From: Podospora anserina
Lineage: Eukaryota
Assembly (NCBI GenBank): GCA_017654855.1
Contig: CM030335.1
Span: 1,550,001-1,614,000 of the forward strand
DNA length: 64,000 nt
Reading direction: 5' to 3'
The notes below the pieces were generated by a model. The model did not search any database and was not told the DNA's origin. It worked only from the letters and a program-made list of their open reading frames with translations. This document shows positions 34,194 through 57,921 of the stretch, piece by piece. Positions within the stretch are counted from its first letter, which is position 1; each line of letters starts with the position of its first letter. The translations under genes were made by a program, and so were the position numbers.

Positions 34194-34416
34194 GGTGGAG
34201 GTTTGGTACCTAGAGTGGGATGTGGTTGCTGTCGATGTATGGTGATGGTGGTTGGTGAGCTGTCAAGTGTGTGGTGGTGACGGTGGTGGGATGGTCAAAG
34301 ATCAAGGTTTTTGAAGGATTGGAAGTGTCACAATCGCGATTGATCCTCGGCCGAGTTCGTGAGCATAATCTGGGTGATGACCTTGATCTCATGCATTGAG
34401 CGTACAAAGCAGATGT

Positions 34417-34430
34417 CCGAGAAATCTCGG
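34417..34430. promoter_or_regulatory. CCGA-N6-TCGG element upstream of O-methyltransferase
   Basis: CCGAGAAATCTCGG, 224 bp from ATG 34193. Confidence 0.75.
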
Positions 34431-34597
34431 TCTGACCACCACAGGTTGCATTTCCGCAGCAGAATGGCCCACTTGCGGATCATCGGCCAAAGTTCTCTGC
34501 ACCGATATTGCACGGTGCGGTCTCAACGCATAGGGGATGCGTTATTGTCCGTCGACTCTACAGTAGACATACAATCTTCAAATCAGGAGGGCCTCGG

Positions 34598-34611
34598 CCG
34601 AAGGACGTCGG
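34598..34611. promoter_or_regulatory. CCGA-N6-TCGG element upstream of PKS
   Basis: CCGAAGGACGTCGG, about 209 bp from ATG 34820. Confidence 0.75.
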
Positions 34612-34819
34612 AGCAGTTGAGATCACTGCTATCAACAGACGCTAAAGGACTCGATGGTGTATGATTGCCAGCTTGAGGACACCAGAGATTCACCGAGATA
34701 CATATCTTGTGATTGTGCCTAGAATTTTGGAGATCCAGAATAGAACCATTGTACCCAAGCGGAAGATTACTATCTCAAAACGAATGTCAACAGAGCGTAG
34801 ATAGTCTCAACACTAAGCT

Positions 34820-37800: not shown

Positions 37801-40800
37801 TACCAGTACACATATGGACCGGTCAATTACTATGAGAGCCGGCTTAGCAAGGAATATCGACTTCGACAAGTCCTTAGGCACGACCTCATAGGCGCCCGGC
37901 TGCCCGGCGCCAGTAAGCTACGGCCTCAATGGCGGAATATTCTTCGACTTAAGGATGTGCCCTGGTTGGGCGACCACCGCTTGATTCCTGACGCCGTCTT
38001 CCCTGCGGCGGGCTTCATTGCTATGGGAATAGAGGCCGCCACGCAGGTGTACCACGAGCTCCCCAAGGCGTATGAGATCACGGGGTACTCGCTCCGCAAG
38101 GTTGACATCGAGACCGCCCTGCGGCTTCCCGAAGATGATCGTGGTGTTGATATCATCCTCAGCTTGGAACTGGCAGACACGGACGCAACGGTCAAATCGC
38201 CTGGCTGGTCCCGTTTCACCGTCAGTTCGGTATCCAGGGATTCCGATGAGTGGACGGAGCACTGCACAGGTCTCGTCAAAGTCGAGATCTCGGAGAAGCC
38301 TGCGGTGGCCAGCAAGATGGGCTCTTTAATGGACCCCCGATTCCCCGGCACACGTGCGTGGTACAACAAGTTCACCGAGATTGGCATCGGCTATGGTCCA
38401 ACTTTCCAGCCTCTCTCCGATATCCGGGCAGACCCCAACCAGAATTTAGCCCAAGCAACCGTGGCGCTGAACACAACGGACAACACGATCGAAGGAGGAG
38501 AGTCAAGCTATTCGCTCCATCCGGCGGCCCTCGACGGCACCTTCCAGCTAGGTCTCATTGCCTGCTACGGTGGCCAATTGGAACGTGCATACACTGCCTT
38601 CGTGCCTGTCCACCTTTCAAGCATGTATCTGAAAGCAGGACTCAGCCCGCATACACCCGCAACAGCCATAGCCCACGGTCAGACCCAAGGCCTGCGCGGT
38701 GCCTACATCAAGCTGCAAATGACTGACGAAAGCGGCAACGTTGTCCTGGACGTCGACACGCTGCGCTGTCTTAGTTTCAAGGAGTCCAAGTCGGACGAGT
38801 ACACCATGCAGTCCAAGAAGGCCCTGAGCAGCCCTTTCACCAGGCTCACCTGGAAGCCCGACATCCGTACTCTTAACAACGACCAGATCCGGGCACTGTT
38901 CCCCCCCCCACAGGAAAATAACCAAGGTGCCGCAAGCCTCGAGGTGGTCGACATGATCTGCTGCCTGGTCGTGGCGGACATCTACGAGGTATTCATCAAA
39001 AGCGCAACCAGCGTACCCCAGCCCAAAGGTGAACTCCGCCACTGGGTCTCTTGGCTGAAGTGGTGCGTCGAGGAAGACAATCGGGAGAATATGGTCGAAG
39101 CCAAGAGTCTTCCTGCCGACCAGCGTCACCAGCTGCTTAAGAAGCTGTACGTTGAGGCCGGTGATCGGCCCGAGGCACAGGCGGCTCGGAGACTGCACGA
39201 GAACATGGGTGAAATCCTCGCGGAGCGCAAGACAGGTATTGACGTCCTCGTGCCGGATGGACTCCTCACGGCGCTGTACGAGACAGGCCATGTCATTGTG
39301 GGCTCATACCCGCAGCTACGTAATGTCCTCGACTGCCTCGGCCATGCCAATCCCAATATGCGTATTTTAGAGGTCGGCGCAGGCACTGGCGCAGGCACAC
39401 GAGTAGCTATGGGGGCGCTGACAAGGTCGAACGGCATTAAGCGGTACGCTGATTACACGTTTACTGATATCTCGGCTGGTTTCTTGACGGCCGCTCAGGA
39501 GTTCATGTCAGGCTATCGTGATGTGAACTACGCTGTTTTGGATATCGGGGAGGATCCGCTCGCCAATGGGTTTGAGCCGGTCTACGATGTGGTCTTTGCA
39601 TGTGAGGCTATCCACGCCACGGCCAGTATGGATGTAACTCTCGAAAACTGCCGGAGGTTGTTGAAGCCGGGAGGCAGGTTAGTGCTGGTGGAGAGCACGC
39701 GTATGAGAGTGCTGCTGGGGCTGCTGTACGGTACTCTCACGGGTTATTGGCTGGGGGTTGGTGACGGTCGTACTGAGGGACCTTTCATGGACCTGGAGAC
39801 CTGGGACAGGCGATTGAGGAAGGCCGGCTTCTCGGGCACGGAGCTGGCCCTTGATGACTACAACCGCCCCCATAACACGACCTCCATCCTCGTTTCCACC
39901 CGTGTCGAAGAGTCTTACGTGGTCACCAACAAAGACACAGAGGCAAAGGAAGGTCCGGCCGTCGTGATCCATCTTTTGCACGGAGCCAATGGCCCGTCGC
40001 CGCTCTTGGAGCAAGTCTCCAGTGAGTTTGAGCGTTGTGGCGTCAAAGCTGTGGCGTCTTCGATCAATGAAGCGTCCGAAACAGTACAGCCCAACGCCCG
40101 CACCGTGGTATTCCTCAACGACGAGAATGACCTCTTTGACACTGAAAACGCCAGCCTTCTCAACTCGTTCCAGCATCTTGCCCGAAACACCAAGAGCATG
40201 GTCTGGTTGACGTCGAGTGGAATTGCCAAAGGTCGGGACCCTCGGGCCGCCTTCATGATTGGCCTTCTCCGAACCATCGCGACTGAGAACCCGGCCGGCC
40301 GTTTCCTCTCCATTGACATTGATGCGGAGACTTTCGGAGAACAGGATGATACTCTCATTCGCAACATCGTCAAATCCGAGCTAGCCCTGCAGAATGAGGA
40401 TGCCTCTGATGAAGAAGGCAGCAAGGACCGAGAGTTTGTCTGGCAGGACGGCTGTATGTGGGTGAGCCGGGTGGTCCCTGACACAGAGCTCGGCGTGTAT
40501 ATCGACCTAAGCAAAACACCTACGAGCAGAGGCTCTCAGATGGTTCCCATTGGCAGTCAGGGTCCTGTTCGTGCGGCATTCGAGACCCCCGGCATCCTTA
40601 CTTCGCTATACTTCCGAGCCTATACAGAGCTCTTGCAACCCATCCCAGCGGACTACGTTGACGTTCAAGTGGCAGCTGTGGGTGTGAACTGGAAGGATTT
40701 GGGCCTCACGTCAGGTCGATTTGACGCAACTGGCAGCAACCTGTCGTCAGAATACGCCGGCGTTGTGACCAAGATCGGTGCCGCAGTGGATGGTCTGTCT

Positions 40801-42807
40801 GTTGGGGATCGTGTCTATGGTGTCGGCAGAGGCCAGTTTGGAAACTACACGAGAGTTCCTGCCGCATTTGCACAAAAGCTCGAGCCAGGAGACATTCTCA
40901 CCGAGATGGCTACGATGCCACTGGTGTACATGACAGCCATCTATGCCTTTGACTATGTGGCACGGCTTAGAAAAGGCCAGAAGGTGTTGCTACAGTCTGC
41001 CACAGGCGGGCTGGGCTTGGCGGCTATTCAGGTTGCGCGGGCTCGGGGTGCCGATGTATTCGCTACTGTTGGCAATGCTGACAAGGTCTCCTTCCTTGTT
41101 GACACTGTGGGTATCCCGGCAGATCACATCTTTTCCTCTCGGGACCCTACGGCGCTATCTAATGCTGCCAAAGCAACCGGCAGGGGCGGCTTTGATGTTA
41201 TTCTCAGTACGGTTGTCGGAGGAGATTTCCTGTGCGAATCCCTTAAAGCGCTGGCTCCCATGGGACATCTTGTCGACGTTGGTCGGCTCGACGTACTTGA
41301 AGCCAAGGACATTGGCTTGGAGCACTTCCAGAGGAACGCCACTCTGACCTCGTTCGATCTTAATGTCCTCCTGGACAATGATCCAGAGCTTGGACGCGAG
41401 TTGATGCAGACAGTCAATGACCTTTATCGATGGAACGTTATTGCGCCGATTCACCCCTTTGCCGTTCACGATGTGTCGGAGCTCGACCGAGTCTTGGTGG
41501 GCCTGTCCAGGGGCACGCACATTGGAAAACTGGTGGTGTCATTCGAGAATCCAGCCTCTCTGATCAAGCTTGTCCAAGAGCCGCCAGCAGCGAAGTTCGA
41601 CTCTGAGGCACGCTATGTTGTCACAGGAGGTCTGGGCGGGCTTGGCCGAGCCATTATCAAGTGGATGGTCAGTCGTGGCGCTCGTGACTTTGTGGTACTT
41701 TCTAGGCGTGGTATCAACACCCCTGCTGCAAAATTACTGGTAAAGGATCTTGAGTCGCAAGGCGTTCGTGTCGAGGCAGCGGTCTGTGATGTGAGCAAGC
41801 GAGAGAATGTCGTGAAAGCGGTCCACAACGCTGCATCGGGCGACCGGGCTGTCAAAGGAGTGATCCATGCAGCCATGTCATTGACAGATCTCTCGTTCGA
41901 CAAGCTGACCATTGATCAATGGCGAGATGGGTTTGCTGCAAAGGCTTTGGGTACCCTCAACCTGCACGAAGCCACTCTTTCGTTACCTTTGGACTTTTTC
42001 GTCATGATCACGTCGACCGAGTCCATCTGGGCACCACCAACTCAAGCGGCATATATCGCTGCAAACAGCTTTCAGGACTATTTTGCCCGCTACCGTCGAC
42101 GGCTCGGCCTTCCCGCGTCCACAGTATCGTATGGGTTGGTGGCTGATGTCAAGTCGGACTTCCTTCACAACTCAGTTGGCACAGATGACATGTACGTACG
42201 TAACAAGACCATGACAATCACAGAGCATCAGGTCCTCGCCCAGCTGGAGCCGGCCTTCTTGCCTGTGGAGACAACTTGCTGGGTTGGGCAGGATCAGGAC
42301 CCGTTGTCAGAGGCCAATATCTTGACATGTCTCGATCCGGTCGGGTTGGCTGAATTGGCGTCGATGAACGATCTTATCCCACGCTGGTATCGCGACGGGC
42401 GCGTGTCGGTTATCATGCAGGCAATGAAGGACGCGCAACGACAAGCGAGCGGGGCAGATGCGGCTCAGGATGGCGCTGGCGGAGCAGGCAAGTCGGCTGT
42501 GGCCCGACTGCGGTCGTCATTCTCGGAGGGAATCAAAGGAGGAGCTGGCGCCCGGGCCATTACGGTCGCGCTCGTGACCGAAGGCGTGATACAGACTGTT
42601 GCTGGGATGTTGTTTATTGATGCGTCAACAGTGGACCCTGCCAAGAGTATTGCCGAGCATGGCGTTGACAGCCTCATTGCGGCTGAACTGCGGAGCTGGT
42701 TCCACCAGGCGTTGAAGACGAACCTCAAGATGGGGGAACTGCTGGACGCACAGACGAGTATCAAGACACTGGCTGAGAATATTGTAGATGCGGCGTTGAA
42801 GGAGTAG
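34820..42807 (+). CDS. Highly reducing iterative type I PKS (KS-AT-DH-cMT-ER-KR-ACP)
   Basis: EPVAIIGMG|CRW; KS NTACSSS, ECHGTGT, GHTEG; AT GHSSGE and AYHS; DH WLGDHRLIPDAVFP; MT LEVGAGTG; ER QSATGGLG; KR TGGLGGLG and YIAAN; ACP GVDSL. Introns 34878-34938 and 35411-35474. Confidence 0.97.
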
Positions 42808-42865
42808 GTTGAGCATTCATGTCATTACTTTTCGCAGCGTTAGATAGACAGATGAAGTCGTTGAA

Positions 42866-42902
42866 GCAACTCCTGATGCAACTCCTGATACAGCCCTGAT
42901 GC
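42866..42902. repeat. 12-bp tandem repeat (GCAACTCCTGAT x2 plus a degenerate copy) downstream of PKS
   Basis: gcaactcctgat gcaactcctgat acagccctgat gc read directly. Confidence 0.7.
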
Positions 42903-43033
42903 GATCCCAAATGTGAACTCCTAACCTGCTTCCAATGCTCAGGCGGTAGCCATCAGAGACTGTCGTCTCGATAAGAACTGCGGCGGGTTCACGTGTTCAT
43001 CCCAAGCTCGGGCACTCGCAGAACTGGCGTCGG

Positions 43034-43047
43034 CCGAAGTTCCTCGG
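43034..43047. promoter_or_regulatory. CCGA-N6-TCGG element upstream of SnoaL-like gene
   Basis: CCGAAGTTCCTCGG, about 221 bp from ATG 43268. Confidence 0.75.
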
Positions 43048-43267
43048 GTGCTCCCGTGCCAAGGCCGGTGATCGACAGGCTTATCCTTCCGCACTTGATC
43101 CGAGGCAGGGTGACGCCAAGGCCCTAACACCGATATGGCTTATCCCCGGTAAGTCCGGCAATGCCATCATAAACCACAACGTCCACCACCATCGACAGCA
43201 ACGCTTGCTTTTCATCTTGACACATCCTGCAAACTCTCAACAGAAACGCAATTGCGATATCTCCAAA

Positions 43268-43969
43268 ATGGCCGGTTCATATGACGCTGCCACTTACTTG
43301 CTCGACAAGGAAAACATCCGCGACACTGTGATCCGCATGGTGAGTTGCCAGTGGGTACTCTTTGTCCGGGCAGTGGGAGTTGCTGATGTTCCTTCCCGCA
43401 ACAGATGTTCGCCTTTGACGACGCCGCCACTGAAACATTGATCAATGATGTTTATGCGCCTGTCATCGAGCTCAGCTACGACAAGCTGTTGCTCGGTGAT
43501 GAGTTTCATCAGAAGAAGATCTCCAGTGAGGAGTGGGCTAAAAGTCTGGAGCATATGCATGACAAGTTTGATACGACGGAGCATATTATTCAGTGAGTTT
43601 TCCCATCGCCACGCATAGATGAAGCTGATGATTCCATCGCAGGAACGTTTTGATTGAGCTACCGCAGCCGGGGGGTGGGGTGCAGAGGCCAAAAAATGTC
43701 AAGGCGAGGGCTATCGCTCATGGGATCTTCTACAAGAGGGATGGGGGGGAGGGGAGGCCGTGTGTTATGGCTTTGAGGAATGGGGTGAGTCAGTTTCTGT
43801 CAGTGTTGAAGTTGCTTGAGTTCGTTAGGTGGCTGACTTTGTGACACGGTAGGGCTCGTACAAGCTGGAGCTGGTCAGGATTGAGGAGAAGGAGGAGAAG
43901 GGGGAGAATCCGTGGCGGATTAGTGGGTTGGATGTCACGCTTGACTGGCAGGATAGGCCTAGTTCTTGA
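43268..43969 (+). CDS. Small SnoaL/NTF2-like protein (putative cyclase or dehydratase)
   Basis: Four exons splice to MAGSYDAATYLLDKENIRDTVIRM|MFAFD..TEHIIQ|NVLIELPQP..ALRNG|GSYKLELVR..NPWRISGLDVTLDW. The pattern resembles SnoaL_4/scytalone-dehydratase-like folds (recognised by eye). Confidence 0.75.
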
Positions 43970-44345: not shown

Positions 44346-46116
44346 CTAGCTCTCCAATGGAACTATGGGGTTGTAATATGCAAACTTATTTAGGGGATCG
44401 TACTGTGCCTTGAGGGCACGTAGTTTCTCCAACCGCCACGGTTCATAGCCGTACATGGACTCCAGCGACTCGTGGCCCGCGGCATAGTTGACGTATGTCG
44501 TGGGCTTCCGCCATTCACCTTCGCCTGCGTTCCACAGATCCTCTGTTTCCCGAGCCCACTGGAAGGCAAAGTCCTCCAGGCCCGAGTTTGGTGGAGGCAT
44601 GGCGTCGAAGTACCTGCGGTGAAATGTCAATACCGTGGTACAGCGGCAGGAACTGTTTCACTCACATCAGAAGATTATCGTCACGCAATGGAAAAGCAGA
44701 GTCCTCCGGCTTGCCCCTCAAAACACCCTCAACGGCATAACCTTCATGGACTAGCTTGGTGCCTGACAGCAACGGCTCCTTGGCGACCTTCTTGTTATAC
44801 AGGTCATAGAGCTGCCGCTGTACAGTGACGTTGTAGACTTGAAGGCCGGCTGTGCCTGTGATATGGACCTTGCTCGGCGCGCACAGATCTGATTCCAGTC
44901 CGCTGATCAAGATGTCTGAGATGGAGGTGAATGGCACATCGCCTTCATCCACCGCCACGGGGCCGAGGGCATCGAACGGTGACAGATCCGCTGCGGCATC
45001 CTCTTTGGAGCCTCCGTAGATGAATGTCCAGAATATTGTGGCCTGAAGAACTGTTAGTGGTAGGCGGCGGTACCTGTGCTGGCCATTATCTCACCTCAGT
45101 AGTGCTCACGCTCGGCTCCATGGTGTAAACACCAAACGCCCCTCCCCACGTCGGCGAAAGGCTACCGTTTGCATGGAACTTATTCAGCTCCTCGAAGAGC
45201 GGCTCAACGTGTTTGCCTGTGAAGACGTAGTTCCTGTAGTAGTAAGACGGGACCGTGACCGGGTAAATCTTCATATCAAAACTGGTGACAATGCCAAAGT
45301 TGTGACCGGCGCCTCTCATCGCCCACCACAAGTCGGGATAGGATGTTTCGCTAACCATGATGGCTGTTCCATTGGCGAGCACAACGTTCAGGCCGATCAG
45401 GTTGTCGGCTATGAGGCCATGGACGCCCTGCTGCACACCGTGACCGCCTCCCAATGCTGGTCCGACCATGCCGACGCAGGAGCAACTTCCAGTTGCTGAG
45501 AGGAGGAGGAACATTGTTAATTTCTAAATAGTCGTTGATTATCAAGGCTAGGAAACTCACTTGTGACATAGCCCTCCTTCCAAAGGACGTCAATCGTCTC
45601 ATAATTCCGCGCCCCAGCCTGGAGCTTAACCGTCATCGCATCCTTGTTGATGGAGATGTCTGTCAGACTTCTCACGTCGATCTGGATGCCGTTGAACCTT
45701 CCAACAGTTGACGTTAATGAGTGCCCGCGATTGACAACAAAGAAGTTGATACCATGCTCATTTGCATATTTCACCTAGTTCAAACTGTTGGTTATCTCGC
45801 TCTGAGTGGATAGGCAGGGACCGCTTACAATCGTCGGGATATCGTTCTCTACCCCGGGTTGAACAACAACCTGCACCTGCGGCACCGCGAAATCTTGATA
45901 TCGCTCGGTAGCGTCCGGCCAACGGGAGTCATCTGGCCCAAAAATACTGGCATTCTTGGAAAGCAAAGGGCCGAGCCCTTGCTGGACAGACCCAGACGGC
46001 AAGGGGCTCTGTCTTGGAACTGGCATCTGAGCGTAGTCCTTTGGGTTGGTATACGCCGCAGCGAGGGCTTGGGTGAGGGCGATGCCAAGTGCAACAAAAC
46101 AATAGAGCGACGGCAT
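44346..46116 (-). CDS. Secreted FAD-linked oxidoreductase (berberine-bridge/VAO family)
   Basis: Signal peptide, VNRGHSL (covalent FAD His), CSCVGMVGPALGGGHG, DLWWAMRGAGHNFGIVT, BBE tail YVNYA..YG..LEKLRALKAQYDPLNKF. Five exons. Confidence 0.93.
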
Positions 46117-46354: not shown

Positions 46355-46368
46355 CCGAAATATCTCGG
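46355..46368. promoter_or_regulatory. CCGA-N6-TCGG element upstream of FAD oxidase
   Basis: CCGAAATATCTCGG, 239 bp from ATG 46116. Confidence 0.75.
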
Positions 46369-46888: not shown

Positions 46889-48717
46889 CTACCAGAAATT
46901 CACCTTGCGCAACCTGACATAAACCTTCTGCGGCTGTCTCGAAATTCCATCAAACCCAGCATAACCCCCCAAAGCCTCTGGAATCTCCAACAACTCAAAA
47001 TTCCAAACCACCAACGCCATAATCGTTCTAATCTCCAGATGCGCCAGCTTCCTCCCCCAGCATTGTCTGATACCCATGCCGAATCCCAGCTGCGGTCCCG
47101 CGCCTGCATCAAACTCCACACTCCCATCCTCCTTGGTGACAAGCCAGCGCTCAGGCTCAAACAGCTTCAGATCCTTGGACTCATCCCAATGAGGCCGTCT
47201 CTTCGCCGCCTTGGACGTCGGGCTACGAGCATTCTCGTTTATAGGCAGCGAAGGGGAGAGGTATCCAGGTCCGGCATTGACCATAAAGACCTGGCATCCT
47301 TTAGGGATCTTGTAGCCCAGAATTTCGGTGTCTTCCGTAGCCTCTCTTGTCATGCTGAATGGTGTCAGGCGCAGCGTCTCCTCGATGACCGCCTCAAGGT
47401 AAGGAATTCTCGCTCGGCGAAGTTCTTCAAAGGTGGGGAAGCGTTTTTCTGCAACAGCCTCTGGAAAAGCAGAGTACAGTGCATCGCGGAGTTTAGACTG
47501 GGCTTCGGGGTAGCCAGTCAAATACTTGGTAACCCACCCCATTGATCCCCCTGTGGTATGATGACCGGCGATCATGTCTGCAAAAATCTAGCAGAGGATT
47601 TCCGTTAGCACAACCTGTTTTTTTGGCTACTTGATGCGGCCACGCTCACCTCATCGACCATGATGTGACTGTTCAACAGAGGCTCACGCCCTTGTTTCTC
47701 AGCTGCAATCTTCTCCCGCATCAGATGGTGCTCCAGAGCTGTCTTGACCTCGCCCGCTTCAAAATTCCGAATCGCCACGTCGAGCTGCTTGGGGACGACT
47801 TGTTCCTTTTGTGAGAAGATCTTCCGGAACCATGGCTGTTGGCTCCACCACCAGAAACTGAGTTTGGGCGCCCAGGCAATTGTGGTCTTTTCCAAGACAT
47901 CAGGTGCGTGATGGACAGCGGCGAGGAATGGCGAGATTGGAGTCTCAGGAAAGATCACAGGCTCGTCCTTGCTGGCTGGGGGGATTTGCGAGGGCCTCAT
48001 GTTGGATATCGTCTCCAACTGAGGGTCCGTTGCCGAGTCTGGAATATTTCCGCCGAAGGCGTAGTGAACCATGGTGTCGAGGGCAGCGTGGTAGTAATCC
48101 GACCGCACAGAAAACGGTCTCCCGTCGGCAAGCTTCATCTTTGCCTCGAAAAGCTTGACGAGCTTCAACCCCTCGCTGTGAAGAAAAGGACCCATGAAGC
48201 TGTTCAGGAAGTTTGGTGCCATCAAGTCTTGCTTGAGGTGGCGGCGGGCTCGGAAGGTGGGGTCGTTGGTCTTGTACCTCGCATTCCAATCACCCAAAGC
48301 GAGGAGCCCGTCGATCAAGAACTGAGGCTTCTCAAACTCGGTGCGGCGCATTAAAATGTCCTGAGCTTCGTGGAAATCGCCCACCAGGATCCATGGCTTG
48401 GAAAACGGACGGATGAAGACTTGGCAGATGGGTTCACCCATTCGTTCGACCTGATGGGCTAGCCACATGCTAAACTCTCCCGTGACGCTGATTTCCCTGC
48501 TCATGGCAGGTGCGTCACCGAACAACGACTTTGTAGCTTCCGTGTTGAACGGAATGCCGGGGAGCGGTTTGGGAAGCAGCCATTGGTACAGCAAATAAGA
48601 ACCAAGGACTGTGAGCGAAACAGCCAGCCAGAGTGTGGCTGTTGGCGACAGGAAGCTAGTAAGCGTCGTATAGATGTTCAGAAGAGCCATATTGTAGGAG
48701 TTTGCATTGAAGGGCAC
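46889..48717 (-). CDS. Cytochrome P450 monooxygenase
   Basis: N-terminal TM plus PKPLPGIP, I-helix AGHHTT, EETLR, PERW, heme motif FGMGIRQCWG. Intron 47649-47588. Start may be 48690. Confidence 0.95.
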
Positions 48718-48997: not shown

Positions 48998-49585
48998 CCG
49001 ATATCTACCGGTCGGAAGGTACCGGCTCGACTGTTCGGAGGGAACGGATGTATAGCTTTCAGAGAGAGTAGCACTGAGCCAGAAAAGTGATTATCGTCCA
49101 CCCAACTATTTGTAGGTGCTCAGATGAGGACTACACTAGGAGACGAGGGAGCTGTGCATGAGTGTGAGGCATATTATTGTGCGTGCACATATGAATCATG
49201 TCTGCTCATTTGTGTTGCATAACCTGCGGAATGCTGCCTCCTTTATAGCTTCATCAATGGCCAAGGGGCACTTTCGTTTCTACATATCACATATGTTAAT
49301 CCATGTGTATAATACCTTATCATTTTCACTATGCCATTTCTCTATGGAGAGCATCGAGCGGCCCAACGCTGCCTGTCTTCATTCTATAATGTAGTAGGTA
49401 AATAGGTAAGGCAGGCAACAGGCACAACAATACCATTATTGCTATGACATGGGGAAAAGACAGTATATATTTGCTATTCCAGGATCATCAGTTGAGAGCA
49501 GCTTCGTAAGTTTGACATGACCCTATTTCCCAACACCCTACGCCTGTCTTGTGTTCATGCAATATTCACGTATAAATCCATATCC

Positions 49586-51805
49586 TCAAAACCAACTAAA
49601 TACACTCATATCAGTTGTCGGTGTATTCTCAGCCAAGAACTCTACTTCGGCATAGTCTGGCGTCTGTAGGCAATTCCACGCCTCCGACAGCTGAAGTGCG
49701 GGATCAGTGACGACGATTGGGTCGGTATCCAGTCTCATTAGTGTGTTGGCCTCGCTAACCGTGGTATCACTGATCTTCTCTAACTTTCCAAGAAGGCGTG
49801 TGAGCGTTCTTGCGCCCACCTCAGCCATGTGGTTCATATCGGCAAGAGTTTGTAGTCGGCCCAGCGCACTCCTTACAGCCTGGATGCACTCGTCCTTAGC
49901 AACGTCAGTGACGCCTACTCCGAAGGGATCTGAGGACTTAGTCATGCTGGTAGTGGACCCCCTTCGGAGTGTGGTCTCTGCTTTTGGTGGGAAGTTTCCG
50001 TCGGAGCAGAGACACAAAAGGACCACTGCAGCCTCAAAGGTTGGGATGATGAGACTCGCATGGCGTGTGTGTGAGCCACCCATCATCAGATGGAGGGCAG
50101 AGACACCTTCAAGTAAGTTTAGTGCTATGACGGCCAGCGCTCGCTTGTGGGATGAGAGCAATATCTGCTTGTAGGCTGGGAGTTGCTGAATCGAGTTGGG
50201 CTCCTGAAATAGCGCAGGGCGGAAGTTGTGGCAAAGCGACTCCAAGATGGCCATATGAAACATCTGACGCTGTAACGGTAAGGTTGGAAGACGGGCATCC
50301 CACTTGTCGCATGTGTCAGGGTAGAGAGCAAAGACAGGTGGTATTTCGGGAAGAAACTCGCTGCAGAACTTCTCGTATCGTTCCTCTGCAGCAATGGGGT
50401 CGTATTCAGTCGCGTTCCCGGAACCATGAGTCCGCCAGAAGTTGGCTAGCTGTGCCTCGAGCACGCGCTCGGTGAACAGGTCAGGAGCATCAGCTTGAGG
50501 GACGTCGTCGAGGCCAAGCACAAGGTGCATTCGAGGCATGGTGTCAGGGTTCAGTGCGTCTGGTAAGAAAGGGATTTGATCCAGACGTTTAGATAGCACA
50601 CTGTCCCAGACATAAAGATTGCAAAATGTCCTCCGTCTCATTTCCTTTTCGAGCTCGTCCATGTTGGGGCTGTAAAAACCTGATGTGGCATCAACATGCA
50701 GCCCAATCCTCTGTGCTACTCGAACAGCGCAACTTAGCGCTTCCCAGTGCGCATTTGTTCGGCCCTGGCACAGGGACCTCAGCCCAGCAAAAGCGACGTG
50801 CTGAACCCGTATAAGAGACCCGCGTGCGTCGAGGCGTGAGCAGATTGGTGTGAGTGCATCGGCCACTCTATCACAGGACTTACGGATGTCAGCCAGCGGC
50901 ACTCCCCTGATGCTGTCGATAGTACAGGTCGGCGAAGGGAGGAACTGAGAGGCATAGGAACATATCCTGAGAACCAGCACTGCAAACTCGATACCGTAGG
51001 CAGTCGATGTCCGCTCCATTTCCCACCATTTCTGATAATGTGAAAGAAACCAAGGCGGATATATGAGCTGATCCATCCTGGGTTGAAGCCTTGTCAGCTA
51101 CTCTTTTGTTGAATAGGTAACGTGGTTGGACAAATTGCATCGGCAGAACTTACCAGCTAACCTCCGCGATGAAATACCGTACCAGAAAGTCGAGGATGGA
51201 CCGATTAGGCATTGAAGCGAACAGCCTTTGGGCTATGATCGCCGTTTCTTCTGGCACTGGCGCGGGCTCGCTGCTGTGCCCCGTTGCATCGTCATCTGCC
51301 CCTAGCTGTGAGGCGTGGTAAGCGTGAGAAAAGACGTCTGACTCGGACGCAACTTACCTTTCTCACCAAAGCAATCGTGTTGGATTTGCTATTCTCAAAA
51401 TACCCGAAAACCTCCGCAAGGGATGTCGGTTCTCTCCCCTCTTTGAGACCCCCCCAGTTGATCGTGTCCTGGACTGAAGATGAAGCAGAGGGCCTCCTTT
51501 CAGCCTGAGCCTCCTGTTGGCTATCATCTGTTTGAATTTCGTCATCATGAAGGTGGTCCTTCTGGGTTTGGGGTGGACTGGGTGGTAATGTAGCTTGAGA
51601 AGGGTTGTAGGCGCATTGTTCGGGGCGTCGACGGCGGCTGCAATGGTTACATGGATACTGCCGGTTGCACTGTGACGGGATAGCATGTCAGTGAGGGACG
51701 TGATGCCAAGATTCCCTGGTATGTGCAATTGCAACCAACCTTCTGTTTCCTGGTGTAACAAGGGATACATGATGAAACCACCCGTTTTCTCTGGCTTGAT
51801 TGCAT
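49586..51805 (-). CDS. Zn(II)2Cys6 transcription factor with fungal-specific middle domain
   Basis: Spliced SCIPCYTRKQK|CNRQYPCNHCSRRRRPEQC; AQRIGLH..EKEMRRRTFCNLYVWD. Start may be 51877. Confidence 0.92.
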
Positions 51806-53826
51806 TATCGATTCGGCGTTCAGGGTGCTGAAAGAGGTATCAACTTCACCAAGGTCCAGACTCGGTTTCCCCAGCATCCACTCGTGGGCTACCTATTCAC
51901 TTTAAGTGCGAGCAGAGCCGACTTTGTCAAGTGGGAGAAGATATCCCACGCCTCTGAGCCGCATTGTGGGATAGCTGTGTGGAGCTGTACGTTGGCAACG
52001 ATCAATCCTGAGTACCACTAAGCACCACCAATTGAAGCTGCATTTCTTCATCGTCTTGCGTATCCCGATACGTGATCCCGCATGCCGCATATTGTATTGC
52101 ATCATCAGCCCTCCAAGTACCGGAATTGGGAGCCGTTGAACGGTAAAGGGAAGGCCCGCTTCGCGCCACCGCCAGAATACTGAGTGTTTCGATATCCGGC
52201 TTCCGACTGGACTACGCCTCATCCACACAGCCCTTACTGCAAAGTGCGGAACAAAAAGCTCAAACACGTGTTCGTCGTCGGAAGAATGGAAAATTCCGTG
52301 GTTGATGAAAAGCCCCCCAAAATAGGCAGCATGCTCTACCTAGGTAAGCACAGTCCACAGGCCTTTTGCGTCAGATGAGAGTGACTTGAGGATAGTTCAA
52401 AGAAGTTTCCATTGATGTTTGGGCCCTTGACCCTACGCTGCAGTCCGAGGTCTCTAGTTCTGTCCCCGAGATGGCGCGTCAGTGTAATGCCACTCATTGG
52501 GCTGGCACGGATTCCTATCAGTGGAAACCTTGCCCTGTTTATCCCATGCCGGCCATCAGTCATCAGTACGCTTTGTACCTATGTCAACGGAACCAATATT
52601 CTACCTATGTGGGGGTCATCCTGCCGTTCTTGTCCGGAGAATTGCCTAGTTTAGACAAGGTCCGCAGACGGATTCCTTTTGGTTGAGCCCACAGGATACC
52701 CAACTCATTCGACGATCTCGATCCAAAACCACAGTCCCCTTCAAACAGCCGCATGGAACAGAAAGAAGCTTAGCTGTGCCATGCCCATGCGCTCGCCACC
52801 GACAATCTGCATAGGGCTCAAGTTGATGTGGTGCGGTATCCTGATTTAGTCCGGGTCCGAAGGTAGCACAGCGTATCACGACTCCACATGCCACGACATA
52901 GCTCTTTGAGAATCGCACCTTATCGGTTATCAGAGAGAACTTTTCATAAGGATCAAGTGTTGCATATCTGAACAATAGCCTGCCATCGGCGCGCAGTTTA
53001 CTTCCCACATGGGTATTCAGTTCGCCGGACATGTACCCTGATAATGTTGTAGTTAGGTAGGTCAGCACTTACCCGTACTGTGTGATACTATAGTGATTGT
53101 ATGAGCAATTATGCATGTCAGCTTGCCATCCACCGGGACCCTGACTGCGATTCGCCCGGGTTCTTGTCGATCGTCCCGTGGTCTTCAGCAGCTGAATATT
53201 TACCGACATAATATATTATGGCTTCGCCCCCTTGAATGCTCGGGCCTTCTACTCAGTCCTTGGGTGTTACCTACTCATGGATGCCCGTGGAAGGGCTACA
53301 GAAGGTTATGCAAGGTCCATACACACATAAACAACATGCAAACAAAAGGTGGTGGTCAGTACTTCGGTCGTTACCTGCGCGCTTTGCTGGTCCATGCCTA
53401 CCATTGAGCAGTCATAGTTATCGAAGATTAATGAACCTAAAAGCTATCCCTTATTACATGTTGCGAGTAATCACATATCGAGGAACCACTTAGCACTGAG
53501 CTGTCAATCGAAATCCTTATCTGGGTCCGGGTTCAGTTCTTTATCTGTCGTTACATGTCCGGAATCCCTTATGTCCGGATTAATAATGGACAATTTGCGT
53601 TTCGGACTTTAGGGCTACTTGCCTTGTTGCGAACGACTGGAACTTTGTTTTGCTCTGTCAGAGATCGTCCCATTCCTTGCCAATTTCGTTGAATGAGATG
53701 CAACAGAGTAATATCCTTGAGAAGCGATTGGCCCTCTGCTCAGACCAACACTCATATCACTCACCTAATCTTGCAGACCATGAAGCCTTACTGGCAGAAG
53801 ATAGCATCCTGCCATCGCAGCCTCAG

Positions 53827-53840
53827 CCGAGATTTTTCGG
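53827..53840. promoter_or_regulatory. CCGA-N6-TCGG element upstream of MFS transporter
   Basis: CCGAGATTTTTCGG, about 198 bp from ATG 54038. Confidence 0.75.
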
Positions 53841-54037
53841 CCCTTGAAGCCAACATAAATCAGAAACAGTTTCCATTTCCTGCTTTGTGGCCCCTGATGC
53901 CTTTGTGTTGGTGGTTCACCGCTTCTTTCTATGCATGATTACTACGCGTCGTTCCTTAACAAGGAAAGGTGAAGTCCCAATCAGCTCGCCGTTCGTTTCG
54001 ACTTGCCACTATCCGTCTCCCTACCCTACCACACCTC

Positions 54038-56183
54038 ATGGACGATCCAACTCCCGCCAACAACACGGAAATTGCTGCTTTGGGTGATGGGAGAGATATG
54101 GAGAAAGTGGAGAAATCCTCCCCGTCTCGTTCCTCGTCCCCTCAGCAAGCTTTGACTGCAGAAGATGAGCCGCAACGAAAAATAACCGGTGCCCGCGTGT
54201 GTTTACCTACATGACCCTGGTCGCAGCTGCTGGCAAGACGTCACCGTACTGACAATTGGGCAGTGGGCAGCTTTTGTTATCAGCACCTTGACGGCTATCT
54301 TCGTCTACTCGTTGGACAACACTATCGTTGCCAACATCATTCCGGTACACATTTCACCATTGTGTTCCCATAAACCACCCCCTACTGACTCGTGATCGTG
54401 AAAAGGTCGTTGTTAACGATCTCAACGGAGTTGACAAGCTACCATGGCTGTCCGTCGGGTAAGCACGAGTCCGATTTCCGGCACCATTTCCTGATCCGAA
54501 GGCTGATGGTACCCCAAAAACGACAGATTCATGATCGGGGGGATGGCAACTATCCTCCCATTCGGAAGACTTTACACAATGTATGATTCCAAATGGGTTT
54601 ACATCATATCTTTTGTCTTCTTCCTCGCCGGATCGGCACTTTGCGGCGCAGCACCAAACATTGATGCTGAAATCATTGGTCGTGTCATGGCCGGTGCCGG
54701 TGGGAACGGGATGTATGTCGGTCTTCAGGTGCTCATGTCTATGCATACTACGGATAAGGAGCGTCCCACATACCTTAGCTACGTGTAAGTATGCGCTGCT
54801 CAATGGCCTTATTTGCTATCATCCATATTGATATGGTCGACTGGCGCATTTAGCGGAGGCACCTGGGGCGTAGGAACCGTTTGTGGTCCAGCTGTCGGAG
54901 GCGCCTTCTCGTTGTACAACTGGCGATGGGGGTTCTACATCAATCTCCTTTTCGGGGCTATCCTTCTGCCAACTTATCTCATCGTCATCCCCTCGGCCAA
55001 CCCGTTGCCGAATAAAAAGCAGTCTGAAAAGCTCGCTCTCATGGACTGGGTTGGCGTCATCATCAGCATTGGCGCCATGGCAACCATCGTCATGGCTATC
55101 AATCTAGGCGGAGTGCAATTCCCCTGGAACAGTGGCTCGATCGTCGCATTATTCGTCGTCAGTGGTGTTCTTTGGATCGCATTCGCTCTCCAGCAGTCGT
55201 TTTGTCTCTTCACGACGGAGCATAAACGTCTGTTTCCTGTGCCCATGCTAAAGCAGAAGATGCCGGTATTGCTTTTCATTGCCTGCGCTGGCGGCTCTGC
55301 GGCTTGCTACATGTCTACATACTGGATTCCCATCTACTTCCAGTTTTCCAAGGGAGACTCAGCAATCTATACGGCTCTTCGACTGCTGCCGTTCATCCTC
55401 GCGCTTATCACGATAATGCCCGTGAGTGGACACCTGATAAGCAGATGGGGTTGGTATAAACCTTGGTTCGTGGGAGGAAGTGCTTTGACTCTTATCACAG
55501 CTGCACTCATGGGTAAGTTCCAGCCATCTGTGACGTTCCTTTGACCAAGGCTTTGGTGCCTAACGCGACATCTAGCCCACTACATCAATGGGGGCACACC
55601 GGTTGGTGCCTTTTATGTCATCGAGCTGTTCTTGGCCTTTGGAATTGGCGCCTATGCACAAAATGCATTTGCCGTCGTTCAGTCAGTTGTCGCCCCCAAA
55701 GACGCACCCTCTGGGCTCGCCCTCATGCTCGTTGGTAAGCTTCATCATCATACAAACCTTTCTGATTACTTTGCCCTTCATGACTGACATTATTGTAGGG
55801 CAACTGACGGGCATCACGTTTGGTCTCTCCATCAGTGGTGCCGTATTCATCAACACAGCAACAAGCGGACTTCATGATGCGCTACCACAGATTCCCGTCG
55901 AGGAGTTGTCGCATGTCGTTGCTGGAGCTAGCAACCAGGTCTTTGAGTCATTGTCACTCGAGCAACGATCACGCGCCCTCGAGATTATTGTCCAGTCCTG
56001 GAATAAGACTTTCATCTGTGTTTACGTCGCTGCTGCAGCCAGTTTAATTTCGTCGGTTTTCTTCAAGGTAAGCAAGCACTTGAAGGCAGTCTGGGGAGAA
56101 GTCATGAGACACAAGAGCTGACTCAAAACTACTTCGTCCAGAACACCAAAGCCAATGTCAACACCGCCGCTGTGGTTCTATGA
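54038..56183 (+). CDS. MFS drug:H+ antiporter (DHA2-like, toxin efflux type)
   Basis: SLDNTIVANIIP, KLPWLSVG, GSALCGAAPN, IGRVMAGAGG, GPAVGGAF, WRWGFYINL. Multi-exon; ends NTKANVNTAAVVL*. Confidence 0.92.
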
Positions 56184-56681
56184 GCGGGTGTGGGAGAAGA
56201 ACGTGAGCATTGGGCGACCAGAAGTCAGTCCTGGGCTTCAAGTTGAATCTGTCGAGGATTGTGGTCAGAAAAGAAGGTGCACAGATGGGTTGTTCCGTAT
56301 TGCCACCAAAACACTGTTGTGTGGTATGATTTTACAGTGCTACAGGAAAAGCAATTTGTGTTTGAAACTTAGACTGCTTAATAGAATTATCGTCCTTGGA
56401 CTCCCTGAACCCTGAGCCCCTGAATCACTTGTACCAAGCCGCTAATTCCAAGGCTGGCCCCCCTTTCCAGCGTCCCAGTTGCCAAAGACGAGATGATTTT
56501 GCGAATTACAAGTGTATTGTAGCATACGTCAAGAACCAGGGGGATTGATTGTGACTGATTCAGAGATAATCGACCTCACACACATAAAGAAGAGTGGATG
56601 TCCACAAACAACGCGCCTTCAGCCTGCCACAACGATGATTTTCCACCGCTTTCCCATGGGCTATCTCATTCTCCCCTAGAC

Positions 56682-57674
56682 TTAATACTCAAACTTCTGC
56701 CCAACCAACTCCTCAGTCAGCCTCCAGCACCTATCCACCTCCCCCTTATCATACACCGCATGTCTCGCAACAGGTTCCACAACCTCCCCATTCTGCAAGT
56801 ACGCCGGCCCTCGCCCTGCCAAATCCGGATCCAGCGCAGCAATAAGAGGCGTAGCACCAATCTGCTCATACGTCTTGAACCGCGGCTCATCCCCAACAGT
56901 GAAGCTAAACTCCTGACCTGTGTTGCGCTTGGTGGTGGGCAAAACATCACTGTAATCATCCATCACCAAGTGTGACCCAAGTTTAGTATCAAGATTAGAC
57001 CCCGGGTGGCAAGCAAAAGCCACCACACCGTGGTCCTTCAGCCGGTCTGTCAAACCATACGCAAACAGGATCTGCGCTGTCTTGGCCTGGCCGTAACCTG
57101 TCCAGATGTCGTAGGTTTTGCCGTTGGAGAAGGAGACGTCGTCAAAGCGGACAGGGGAGATTTGGTACCCTACGCTGGTGAGGTTGATGACGCGGGCTCC
57201 GTAGGGGCTCTTGGCACCGGTGAGAAGGGCGGGGGTGAGAAGGTTCGTCAGGAGGAAGTGTCCGACGTGGTTGACGGACATTTGCATTTCTATGCCTTGC
57301 TTGTCGAGGGTGTATTTCTTGAGGGCCATGTTTCCGGCGCTGTTGATGAGGACGTCGATTTTGGATTTAGTAGCTGTCAGGATTTCCTGTGCCGCGCGGC
57401 GGACTGAGTCATGGTTGGAGAGGTCGAGTTGGATAAATGTAGCTTTGATTGATGGGTCTTGTTTCCGGATGGCTGTGATCACCGGGTGGACGTTTTCAGC
57501 GGTGCGGGAGGCGATCAGAAGGTGAGCTGGTGATGCTTTGGCGAGTTCGATGGCGATTGAGCTCCCGATACTGGGTTGGCCGGCGCCAGTGATGACGAAG
57601 GTGCGTCCTTTGACTTGGGGAGCAAAGGCTGCAACGGCTTGCTCGCTGGTGACAGTGCCAGCAAAGACAGTCAT
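56682..57674 (-). CDS. Short-chain dehydrogenase/reductase
   Basis: VITGAGQPSIG, LDLS, DVLINSAG, NHVGHFLLTNLL, catalytic YGQAK, HPG. Confidence 0.93.
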   Translation of the reverse strand: MTVFAGTVTSEQAVAAFAPQVKGRTFVITGAGQPSIGSSIAIELAKASPAHLLIASRTAENVHPVITAIRKQDPSIKATFIQLDLSNHDSVRRAAQEILTATKSKIDVLINSAGNMALKKYTLDKQGIEMQMSVNHVGHFLLTNLLTPALLTGAKSPYGARVINLTSVGYQISPVRFDDVSFSNGKTYDIWTGYGQAKTAQILFAYGLTDRLKDHGVVAFACHPGSNLDTKLGSHLVMDDYSDVLPTTKRNTGQEFSFTVGDEPRFKTYEQIGATPLIAALDPDLAGRGPAYLQNGEVVEPVARHAVYDKGEVDRCWRLTEELVGQKFEY

Positions 57675-57907
57675 GCTGAGAGATACAAGTTAAGGGCGGG
57701 TTCCAGGTTTGCTGTAGTAATTCTGTGCCACAGAACGCTAGGGGTTGCAAACTAGAGACATATTACATATCTGTGGTTTAAAACCGCAGGCCATTCTGGA
57801 ATCCGGCAATAAAGGCCATGCCTGCATTGCCGGATGCCTTGATGTGGCGAAACCACTGTTGGGTGCCTGTAGAATTGATGCTGTGCATCACTGAACCGAA
57901 TGTTGGA

Positions 57908-57921
57908 CCGAAACTATTCGG
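57908..57921. promoter_or_regulatory. CCGA-N6-TCGG element upstream of SDR
   Basis: CCGAAACTATTCGG, 234 bp from ATG 57674. Confidence 0.75.

What the first reader, a model, noticed from the sequence alone, without database searches (positions are those of the whole stretch)
34347..57921. One perfect CCGA-N6-TCGG element ~200-290 bp upstream of all seven non-TF cluster genes
Seen: exact matches at 34417 (OMT), 34598 (PKS), 43034 (SnoaL-like), 46355 (FAD oxidase), 48984 (P450), 53827 (MFS) and 57908 (SDR), at nearly constant distance from each ATG. An 8-base pattern is expected about once per 65 kb. CCG-N8-CGG variants occur at 34502 and 48998. Established: Zn2Cys6 dimers bind spaced CGG triplets. 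Inference: this is the everted-repeat site of the cluster TF (49586-51805). It sets the cluster limits at OMT and SDR. I noticed no copy near the TF start or the flanking genes (scan not exhaustive), which suggests no direct autoregulation.
Basis: partly seen in the sequence, partly recalled or inferred. Interest (0 to 1): 0.8.

Follow-up and report, generated by a model that had tools for sequence, protein, structure and literature searches.

The report
Shared promoter motif of a polyketide cluster
A 14-base palindromic DNA motif sits about 200-300 bases upstream of each of the seven non-regulator genes in a fungal (Podospora) polyketide gene cluster and recurs in related clusters, so it is very probably the docking site of the cluster's own zinc-cluster regulator: a clean new example of a well-known kind of control.

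Summary
CCGA-N6-TCGG occurs exactly 7 times in the 64 kb window, at the stated coordinates (about 1 expected). All 7 lie in the cluster's 5.4 kb of intergenic DNA (0.04 expected), 197-293 bp upstream of the ATGs of the OMT, HR-PKS, SnoaL-like, FAD-oxidase, P450, MFS and SDR genes. An unbiased count of all 4-N(0-14)-4 dyads returns it as the only dyad shared by all 7 promoters; shuffles reach at most 4. Two metagenome contigs carry orthologous clusters with 44-79% protein identity. There the exact motif lies upstream of 4 of 5 examinable non-TF genes, and again not at the TF gene. Spliced RNA contigs show the cluster is transcribed. Three genes' transcript contigs end 177-204 bp short of the motif. 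The in-cluster factor has all six cysteines of a Zn2Cys6 domain, nearly invariant in the 14 aligned orthologues, and its orthologues sit beside the PKS/P450 orthologues in many fungi. Binding by this factor is inferred, not shown. The verdict is a real cis-regulatory element and a new member of a known kind (as with AflR, GliZ, TerR). Interest is moderate.

The parts
34417..34430 (.). Exact motif copy CCGAGAAATCTCGG, 223 bp upstream of the OMT ATG in the divergent OMT-PKS intergenic region
34502..34515 (.). Imperfect copy CCGATATTGCACGG (CCG-N8-CGG, 1 mismatch) between the two perfect OMT/PKS copies
34598..34611 (.). Exact motif copy CCGAAGGACGTCGG, 208 bp upstream of the PKS ATG
43034..43047 (.). 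Exact motif copy, 220 bp upstream of the SnoaL-like ATG and 177-191 bp upstream of the 5' ends of RNA contigs (43224, 43238)
46355..46368 (.). Exact motif copy CCGAAATATCTCGG, 238 bp upstream of the FAD-oxidase ATG. The same 14-mer lies upstream of the SnoaL-like gene in L001
48984..48997 (.). Exact motif copy, 293 bp upstream of the P450 ATG and 198-204 bp upstream of RNA contig ends at 48786 and 48780
48998..49011 (.). Imperfect copy CCGATATCTACCGG abutting the perfect P450 copy. A tandem arrangement of an imperfect and a perfect copy is also seen upstream of the P450 in L002
53827..53840 (.). Exact motif copy, 197 bp upstream of the MFS ATG and about 2 kb upstream of the divergent TF ATG
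57908..57921 (.). Exact motif copy, 233 bp upstream of the SDR ATG and 179 bp upstream of an RNA contig end at 57729
32744..34193 (-). O-methyltransferase gene (4 exons, 421 aa model)
   Evidence: Methyltransf_2, 44 bits
34820..42807 (+). Highly reducing PKS (KS-AT-DH-CMeT-ER-KR-ACP), 99% identical to a Podospora pseudocomata PKS
43268..43969 (+). SnoaL-like small protein gene with 3 introns, all seen as RNA joints
44346..46116 (-). FAD-linked (FAD_binding_4) oxidase gene, 515 aa model; its 4 introns are seen as RNA joints
46889..48690 (-). Cytochrome P450 gene, 579 aa; its intron is seen as an RNA joint in 4 of 4 runs
49586..51805 (-). Zn2Cys6-type transcription factor gene. Exon 1 (51805-51740) carries Cys1-3 and exon 2 carries Cys4-6. 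It has a Fungal_trans domain and no motif copy in its own proximal promoter
54038..56183 (+). MFS transporter gene, 559 aa, 7 introns; all seven appear as RNA joints, each in at least 3 of the 4 runs laid
56682..57674 (-). Short-chain dehydrogenase/reductase gene, single exon, 330 aa

Best explanation
CCGA-N6-TCGG is the upstream activating element of this HR-PKS cluster. It is an everted pair of CGG triplets 8 bp apart, and its inner bases extend the palindrome towards CCGAGAWWTCTCGG. Each of the seven non-regulator genes carries one perfect copy about 200-300 bp upstream of its ATG, which for three genes is about 180-200 bp upstream of the transcript 5' ends. Two promoters carry an extra imperfect copy. 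The most likely binder is the Zn2Cys6 factor encoded inside the cluster (49586-51805). Two of its zinc-cluster domains would each read one TCGG half-site on the same face of the helix, since the half-site centres are 11 bp apart, and this would switch the seven genes on together. Shown here: the element exists, is enriched, is positioned and is conserved; the genes are transcribed; the TF has the six-cysteine domain and travels with the cluster. Inferred: that this TF is the binder, that it binds as a homodimer, and that it activates.
For: (1) Enrichment. There are 7 copies in the window against 1.04 expected. All 7 lie in the cluster's 5446 bp of intergenic DNA, where 0.041 are expected, and none in the other 40,268 bp. 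(2) Unbiased discovery. It is the only 4-N(0-14)-4 dyad present in 7 of 7 promoter segments; shuffled sets reach at most 4. (3) Position. The gaps to the ATG are 197-293 bp. RNA contig 5' ends for the SnoaL-like, P450 and SDR genes lie 177-204 bp downstream of the motif, so the motif is upstream of those transcripts. (4) Conservation without alignable flanks. Metagenome loci L001 and L002 hold orthologous genes at 44-79% protein identity. The exact motif lies 225 bp upstream of the L001 P450, 195 bp upstream of the L001 SnoaL-like gene, 427 bp upstream of the L002 P450 and 198 bp upstream of the L002 FAD oxidase. L001 has 3 copies against 0.048 expected (0 of 500 shuffles reach this). L002 has 2 against 0.29 expected (14 of 500 shuffles reach this). 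The surrounding promoter DNA is largely unalignable, except for the tandem imperfect-plus-perfect block upstream of the P450 in the window and L002. (5) The TF. Its cysteine spacing is CX2CX6CX5CX2CX8C. The domain is nearly invariant in 14 orthologues, including lichen-forming and non-lichenised fungi. TF orthologues carry locus tags next to those of the PKS/P450 orthologues in many genomes, for example DL769_009053/54, E0Z10_g9991/9993/9994, CHGG_10649/50 and Q9188_003100/02/05. L002 keeps the TF next to the P450. (6) Family logic. Zinc-cluster proteins read CGG triplets as inverted, direct or everted repeats with factor-specific spacing (PMC10954478, introduction passage). (7) As with the proposed GliZ site, the TF's own promoter lacks the motif, both in the window and in L002 (PMC4006717 passages).
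Against: There is no binding or TF-dependence data of any kind. The L002 SDR promoter has no exact or 1-mismatch copy, so conservation is 4 of 5 examinable non-TF promoters. The L002 P450 copy sits at 427 bp, outside the 197-293 bp band. In run X1 an RNA contig joined to the FAD-oxidase transcript extends to 46671, across the motif at 46355. That copy can therefore lie inside transcribed DNA, possibly through read-through from the upstream P450 gene. Pfam's Zn_clus model scores below its cut-off in 2 of 6 TF orthologues tested (20.9 and 19.7 bits against 21) and gives no hit in the other 4. One exact copy in L001 (position 991) lies inside the P450 coding sequence, so exact matches unrelated to promoters do occur. 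An 8-base pattern should occur by chance about once per 65 kb, so the motif alone cannot define a genome-wide regulon. No genome is held for this window, so its frequency elsewhere could not be measured.
Confidence: 0.7

Rival explanations
1. The element is functional, but another factor reads it, for example a zinc-cluster protein encoded outside the cluster or a heterodimer. The in-cluster TF would then act through a different, less obvious site or through protein-protein contacts.
For: Nothing links the TF to the motif except co-location and co-conservation. A review states that Sol4, the regulator of the similar solanapyrone cluster, lacks the typical DNA-binding domain yet controls the whole cluster (PMC6891577 passage). 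Pfam Zn_clus is below its cut-off in the TF orthologues.
Against: The TF has all six cysteines, and the domain is almost invariant in the 14 orthologues aligned. That is hard to explain if it does not bind DNA. The motif is absent from the 40 kb of non-cluster DNA in the window, so no broader regulon is visible here. The motif persists where the TF persists (L002).
Confidence: 0.17
2. The TF binds the half-sites as two independent monomers, as TerR and AlcR do, rather than as a pre-formed homodimer. The fixed spacing would then reflect cooperative contacts on the DNA.
For: TerR lacks a coiled coil, is a monomer in solution, and binds paired CGG half-sites (PMC4360782 passages). I saw no heptad-type segment in the variable, proline- and acid-rich stretch after the zinc cluster in alignment A5 (read by eye, no coiled-coil program was run).
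Against: The spacing is exactly N6 in all 11 promoter copies, and the inner bases are also palindromic. This is what a symmetric dimer predicts. Isolated half-sites are not enriched: CCGA occurs 232 times and TCGG 274 times in the window.
Confidence: 0.25
3. The copies are chance matches, or leftovers of duplicated promoter DNA or a small repeat element, and have no regulatory role.
For: The looser versions are not enriched.
Against: 0 of 100 and 0 of 2000 shuffles reach 7 copies. Unbiased dyad counting singles the motif out. The flanks of the copies share no similarity, so they are not repeat copies. The motif recurs at about the same distance in loci whose promoters are otherwise unalignable.
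Confidence: 0.02

Closest known systems
Proposed GliZ site TCGG-N3-CCGA of the gliotoxin cluster (Aspergillus fumigatus)
   Same: [quoted passage not shown] It was predicted from sequence and not experimentally proven (PMC4006717 passages). Here too the regulator's own promoter lacks the site.
   Different: The orientation is opposite (TCGG...CCGA inverted there, CCGA...TCGG everted here) and the spacer differs (3 against 6). In this cluster the transporter gene does carry the motif.
TerR site TCGGHHWYHCGGH of the terrein cluster (Aspergillus terreus)
   Same: It is the motif of an in-cluster Zn2Cys6 activator, found by motif search in the cluster's intergenic regions and then verified by SPR and promoter mutation. 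At least one high-affinity site lies in every promoter needed for the product. The bidirectional promoter carries several copies. The TF has no coiled coil (PMC4360782 abstract and passages).
   Different: The TerR site is a direct repeat with a 5-bp spacer bound by monomers. This site is a strict palindromic everted repeat with an 8-bp gap between the CGG triplets. TerR binding is experimentally shown; binding here is not.
Yeast everted-repeat binders Leu3 (CCG-N4-CGG) and Pdr3 (CCGCGG)
   Same: They share the same everted orientation of CGG triplets, read by Zn2Cys6 homodimers (PMC10954478 introduction passage).
   Different: The spacing here is 8 bp. My full-text search for the strings CCGAN6TCGG, CCGA-N6-TCGG, CCGN8CGG, CCG-N8-CGG and CCGANNNNNNTCGG found 0 papers. 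From recall only, and from no call: the UaY and Ppr1 sites are TCGG-N6-CCGA, that is, the same half-site and spacer length in the opposite (inverted) orientation.
Solanapyrone (sol1-sol6) cluster of Alternaria solani and Ascochyta rabiei with its regulator Sol4
   Same: It is an HR-PKS cluster of six genes that includes a Zn2Cys6-family regulator controlling the whole cluster (PMC6891577 passages). Submitters named PKS homologues that are 52-63% identical to this PKS 'Prosolanapyrone synthase' (P0133, P0192). The OMT, P450, FAD-oxidase and dehydrogenase complement matches what I recall of sol2, sol6, sol5 and sol3. The review passages I saw name only the roles of sol1, sol4 and sol5.
   Different: No Sol protein was compared directly. 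This cluster has two extra genes (SnoaL-like and MFS). Sol4 is described as lacking the typical DNA-binding domain, whereas this TF has all six cysteines. The Sol4 paper itself (PMC4621316) is not held, so I do not know whether a sol promoter motif is in print.

Membership tests
Zn2Cys6 (Gal4-type) zinc-cluster binding site | Two CGG triplets in a fixed relative orientation and at a fixed spacing | tested here: met
   All 7 window copies and all 4 promoter copies in L001 and L002 are CCG-N8-CGG with A/T flanking the triplets on the inside. The definition of orientations comes from PMC10954478.
Zn2Cys6 (Gal4-type) zinc-cluster binding site | A Zn2Cys6 protein physically binds it | not testable with these tools
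   No DNA-protein tool or binding data were available. Complex prediction takes no DNA and was unavailable in any case.
Zn2Cys6 transcription factor (the candidate binder) | Six cysteines spaced CX2CX6CX5-12CX2CX6-8C near the N-terminus | tested here: met
   The spacing CX2CX6CX5CX2CX8C is read from exons 1 and 2. The cysteines are invariant or nearly invariant in the 14 orthologues of alignment A5.
Zn2Cys6 transcription factor (the candidate binder) | Match to Pfam Zn_clus (PF00172) above the gathering score | tested here: not met
   Of 6 orthologues tested, 2 score 20.9 and 19.7 bits against a cut-off of 21, and 4 have no hit at E <= 0.01. Fungal_trans (PF04082) is met in 6 of 6. The window's own spliced protein could not be submitted.
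Zn2Cys6 transcription factor (the candidate binder) | Coiled-coil dimerisation element next to the zinc cluster | tested here: inconclusive
   The AlphaFold2 model of orthologue P0241 has pLDDT below 50 over residues 1-139. The homodimer job could not be run.
Pathway-specific regulon of a fungal biosynthetic cluster (AflR / GliZ / TerR type) | TF gene inside the cluster, with its motif in most or all cluster promoters and rare elsewhere | tested here: met
   7 of 7 non-TF promoters carry the motif, and there are 0 copies in the 40,268 bp outside the cluster.
Pathway-specific regulon of a fungal biosynthetic cluster (AflR / GliZ / TerR type) | Motif retained in orthologous clusters | tested here: met
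   4 of 5 examinable non-TF promoters in L001 and L002 carry an exact copy. The L002 SDR promoter does not. L003 has only about 106 bp upstream and cannot be judged.
Pathway-specific regulon of a fungal biosynthetic cluster (AflR / GliZ / TerR type) | Expression of the cluster genes depends on the TF | not testable with these tools
   The only evidence is that spliced transcripts of the cluster genes and of the TF are present together in the runs laid.
Solanapyrone-type (sol) cluster | HR-PKS orthologous to Sol1, plus an OMT, P450, FAD oxidase, dehydrogenase and regulator | tested here: inconclusive
   The enzyme classes are present by Pfam. The only link to Sol1 is the submitters' names on homologues that are 52-63% identical. 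No Sol sequence was available for comparison.
Solanapyrone-type (sol) cluster | Regulator of the Sol4 type, without the typical DNA-binding domain | tested here: not met
   This TF has the six-cysteine domain. The description of Sol4 comes from a review passage only.

The most novel reading that the evidence does not exclude
The TF and its everted CCG-N8-CGG site (extended form about CCGAGAWWTCTCGG) form an ancient, portable regulatory module. It has stayed with this solanapyrone-like cluster across distantly related ascomycetes, both lichen-forming and non-lichenised. It would be the first defined site for a divergent subfamily of zinc-cluster regulators that standard domain models miss. Their zinc cluster is split by an intron after the third cysteine and scores below the Pfam cut-off. 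If Sol4-type regulators 'without a DNA-binding domain' belong to the same subfamily, their apparent lack of a domain could come from gene models or domain detection rather than biology.
Probability: 0.3. Interest if true: 0.6.

Novelty: new member of a known kind. Interest (0 to 1): 0.45.

Why it matters
The element gives a sequence-level definition of one cluster's regulon: seven genes, bounded by the OMT and SDR genes. It also supplies a ready target for EMSA or DAP-seq, promoter mutagenesis and synthetic activation of a cluster family found in many fungi (Sordariales, Xylariales, lichen-forming fungi, Aspergillus, Penicillium, Fusarium). No product has been assigned in Podospora, as far as my searches show. 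It adds an everted, 8-bp-spaced CGG pair to the catalogue of zinc-cluster sites. The principle of an in-cluster Zn2Cys6 factor with a shared promoter motif is textbook, so a specialist would find it tidy and useful rather than surprising.

Tried and rejected
- **Whole-genome frequency of the motif:** no genome is held for this window.
- **Earlier notes of this scan:** nothing by place, words or sequence.
- **Literature on the cluster in Podospora:** a listing of 25 papers and passages of PMC9864250 gave nothing on this locus. A six-term cluster search found 0 papers. The motif-string search found 0 papers. The Sol4 paper is not held by DOI or by PMC id.
- **RNA runs:** no listed holder is on record as RNA. 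The four runs laid proved to be RNA through their spliced joints. Contig depths differ greatly between genes and runs, but they are not normalised, and I draw no co-expression conclusion from them. No transcript ends could be read for the OMT, PKS, MFS or TF genes, because the stretch laid starts at 38101 and the listing was cut.
- **Promoter alignments:** MAFFT alignments of orthologous promoters mostly did not place the motif copies in the same columns, so they serve only to show that the flanks have diverged.
- **ESM Atlas** with the 62-aa SnoaL-like exon: no usable hit.
- **AlphaFold2 model of TF orthologue P0241:** mean pLDDT 51.8, and below 50 over residues 1-139, so it is unusable for the DNA-binding or dimerisation question.
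- **Complex prediction** for a TF N-terminal homodimer: the queue was full repeatedly, and the tool was then declared unavailable. Nothing was folded.
- **Pfam on exon pieces:** pieces of the OMT, the SnoaL-like gene and some flanking ORFs gave no hits at first. This was resolved for the OMT and for the SnoaL-like gene through its homologues.

Full report
**Observation.** A scan of the window for CCGA-N6-TCGG returns exactly seven matches, at 34417, 34598, 43034, 46355, 48984, 53827 and 57908. Dinucleotide-preserving shuffles of the window give a mean of 1.04 and never more than 4. Looser versions of the pattern are not enriched. CCG-N8-CGG occurs 18 times against 14.75 expected. The pattern with up to one mismatch occurs 26 times against 25.4 expected. 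The signal therefore lies in the full eight specified bases. All seven copies fall in the 5446 bp of intergenic DNA inside the cluster, where 2000 shuffles give a mean of 0.041 and a maximum of 2. The 40,268 bp outside 34194-57925 hold none.

CCGA-N6-TCGG is the only dyad present in all seven. In 150 shuffled sets the best dyad reached 3 (100 sets) or 4 (50 sets) (the same result with overlapping 500-bp promoters).

**Genes and organism.** Pfam on exon-sized ORFs gives the following:
- a highly reducing PKS (KS-AT-DH-CMeT-ER-KR-ACP);
- an FAD_binding_4 oxidase;
- a P450;
- a Fungal_trans transcription factor;
- an MFS transporter;
- a short-chain dehydrogenase.

The last exon of the leftmost gene matches the O-methyltransferase domain at 44 bits. 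The small gene has no Pfam hit on its own exons. Its database homologues, one of them 98% identical over the matched part, match SnoaL_4. I built gene models from splice-site rules.

Introns of the SnoaL-like, FAD-oxidase, P450 and MFS genes were then confirmed by GT..AG joints in RNA contigs. The P450 and PKS are 99% identical to proteins of Podospora species, so the window comes from a Podospora genome. The ORFs tested in the flanks carry no biosynthetic domain near the cluster: DUF3716 on the left and nothing on the right. Further left lie an alpha/beta hydrolase, a PDR-type ABC transporter, CK2-beta, a JmjC protein and an amine oxidase.

**Position.** The gap between the motif and the ATG is 223, 208, 220, 238, 293, 197 and 233 bp for the OMT, PKS, SnoaL-like, FAD-oxidase, P450, MFS and SDR genes. 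The OMT and PKS genes share a 626-bp divergent region with two perfect copies and one imperfect copy (34502) between them. The P450 copy abuts a second imperfect copy (48998). The flanks of the seven copies share no similarity, so they are not copies of a repeat. Within the spacer the bases lean towards a longer palindrome, about CCGAGAWWTCTCGG (position counts).

**Transcription.** Four public runs, coded X1, X3, X9 and X11, were laid on 38101-58100. Their contigs skip the predicted introns:
- SnoaL-like intron 1 in 4 of 4 runs;
- the P450 intron in 4 of 4 runs;
- the four FAD-oxidase introns in 3 of 4 runs;
- the seven MFS introns, each in 3 or 4 of 4 runs.

The runs therefore hold RNA, and the cluster, TF included, is transcribed in them. 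Contig 5' ends lie at these positions:
- 43224 and 43238 for the SnoaL-like gene;
- 48751, 48780 (followed by adapter sequence) and 48786 for the P450;
- 57729 for the SDR.

The longest of these place the motif 177-204 bp upstream of the transcripts. One contig in X1 continues from the FAD-oxidase gene up to 46671, across the copy at 46355. This may be read-through from the P450 gene upstream on the same strand, but contigs cannot settle that. The depths are not normalised, and I draw no co-expression claim from them.

**Conservation.** Fungal genomes are not held, but a scan of metagenome contigs with an alignment of P450 orthologues gave three loci. L002 (21 kb) carries SDR, TF, P450, FAD-oxidase and PKS orthologues at 44-79% identity, in a different order and orientation. 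L001 (6 kb) carries the P450, a partial FAD-oxidase piece and the SnoaL-like gene. L003 has only the P450, with about 106 bp upstream. Exact copies of the motif lie:
- 225 bp upstream of the L001 P450 (ATG fixed at 696);
- 195 bp upstream of the L001 SnoaL-like gene;
- 427 bp upstream of the L002 P450;
- 198 bp upstream of the L002 FAD oxidase.

Shuffles expect 0.048 copies in L001 (3 seen; 0 of 500 shuffles reach this) and 0.29 in L002 (2 seen; 14 of 500 shuffles reach this). The third L001 copy lies inside the P450 coding sequence. The L002 SDR promoter has no exact or 1-mismatch copy. The L002 TF promoter has none either, as in the window. So 4 of 5 examinable non-TF promoters keep the motif, while the surrounding promoter DNA is mostly unalignable. 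The exception is the P450 promoter, where the window and L002 share a block of an imperfect copy directly followed by a perfect one.

**The factor.** Exon 1 of the TF gene (51805-51740) encodes the first three cysteines and exon 2 the other three, with spacing CX2CX6CX5CX2CX8C. In an alignment of 14 orthologues, spanning lichen-forming and non-lichenised fungi, this stretch is almost invariant while the following roughly 60 residues are variable. Pfam's Zn_clus model nevertheless scores just under its cut-off in 2 of 6 orthologues and gives no hit in the other 4; Fungal_trans is found in all 6.

Locus tags and shared contig lengths show TF orthologues lying next to PKS and P450 orthologues in many genomes. 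I could not test dimerisation.

**Mechanism.** Zinc-cluster proteins read pairs of CGG triplets as inverted, direct or everted repeats, and the spacing sets the specificity. Leu3 (CCG-N4-CGG) and Pdr3 (CCGCGG) are the everted examples (PMC10954478, introduction passage). The present element is an everted pair 8 bp apart, with half-site centres 11 bp apart on one face of the helix. The exact spacing in 11 of 11 promoter copies and the palindromic inner bases point to a symmetric dimer. Cooperative binding of two monomers, as in TerR (PMC4360782 passages), is the main mechanistic alternative.

I put 0.7 on the in-cluster TF being the binder and about 0.9 on the element being a real cis-regulatory site of the cluster. 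Binding, activation and dimerisation are inferred.

**Comparison with what is known.** The closest parallels are these:
- The proposed, unproven GliZ site TCGG-N3-CCGA is found at every gli gene except gliZ and gliA (PMC4006717 passages).
- The experimentally verified TerR site is TCGGHHWYHCGGH.
- The cluster itself resembles the six-gene solanapyrone cluster. Submitters named PKS homologues 52-63% identical to this one 'Prosolanapyrone synthase'. A review describes sol1-sol6 with a Zn2Cys6-family regulator, Sol4, that controls the whole cluster but lacks the typical DNA-binding domain (PMC6891577 passages).

I compared no Sol protein directly. The Sol4 paper is not held, so I cannot say whether a sol promoter motif is already described. 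A full-text search for five spellings of the present motif found no paper.

**Verdict.** This is a new member of a known kind, a pathway-specific zinc-cluster site, with an orientation and spacing that I did not find in print. Its practical value is that it defines and could help activate a widely distributed cluster family. Interest: 0.45.

Noticed in passing
window 45827-46671: In run X1 one RNA contig (2020 letters) joined to the FAD-oxidase exons continues 555 bp upstream of that gene's ATG, across the motif at 46355. It stops about 150-180 bp short of the apparent 3' end of the P450 transcript (46822-46855). This may be read-through from the P450 gene or a second, distal start.
   Followed up: partly
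L001 2614-3421: Directly downstream of the P450, L001 holds only a piece matching residues 273-496 of the FAD oxidase, with no N-terminal half. This looks like a truncated or decayed copy in that organism.
   Followed up: no
L002 4180-4420: A strongly A+T-rich, low-complexity stretch lies between the SDR and TF orthologues. The SDR promoter beside it is the one examinable promoter that lacks the motif.
   Followed up: no
window 51740-51805 and 51295-51669 (TF exons 1-2); proteins P0241-P0264: The zinc-cluster domain is split by an intron after the third cysteine, and it scores below Pfam's Zn_clus cut-off in the orthologues tested. A gene model that missed the 66-nt first exon would look like a regulator 'without a DNA-binding domain', which is how a review describes Sol4. 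Whether the two are related was not tested.
   Followed up: partly
window 48984-49011 and L002 9546-9573: In both loci the P450 promoter has an imperfect copy directly abutting the perfect copy. This is the only part of the promoter that MAFFT aligns between the two loci.
   Followed up: partly
window 51806-53826: The 2 kb between the divergent TF and MFS genes has no Pfam-recognisable ORF. It also shows almost no RNA contig depth between 52108 and 53441 in the four runs.
   Followed up: partly
window 15430-20057: A PDR-type ABC transporter (ABC_trans_N, two ABC2_membrane domains, PDR_CDR) lies about 13 kb to the left of the cluster. It has no motif copy in front of it, so the motif does not tie it to the cluster.
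   Followed up: partly
window 42537, 44544, 44934, 55250: The RNA contigs differ from the window at four single bases (A>G, T>C, G>A, A>G), each in two or more of the four runs laid. These look like strain differences rather than RNA editing, but no DNA run of the same strain was laid to check.
   Followed up: no
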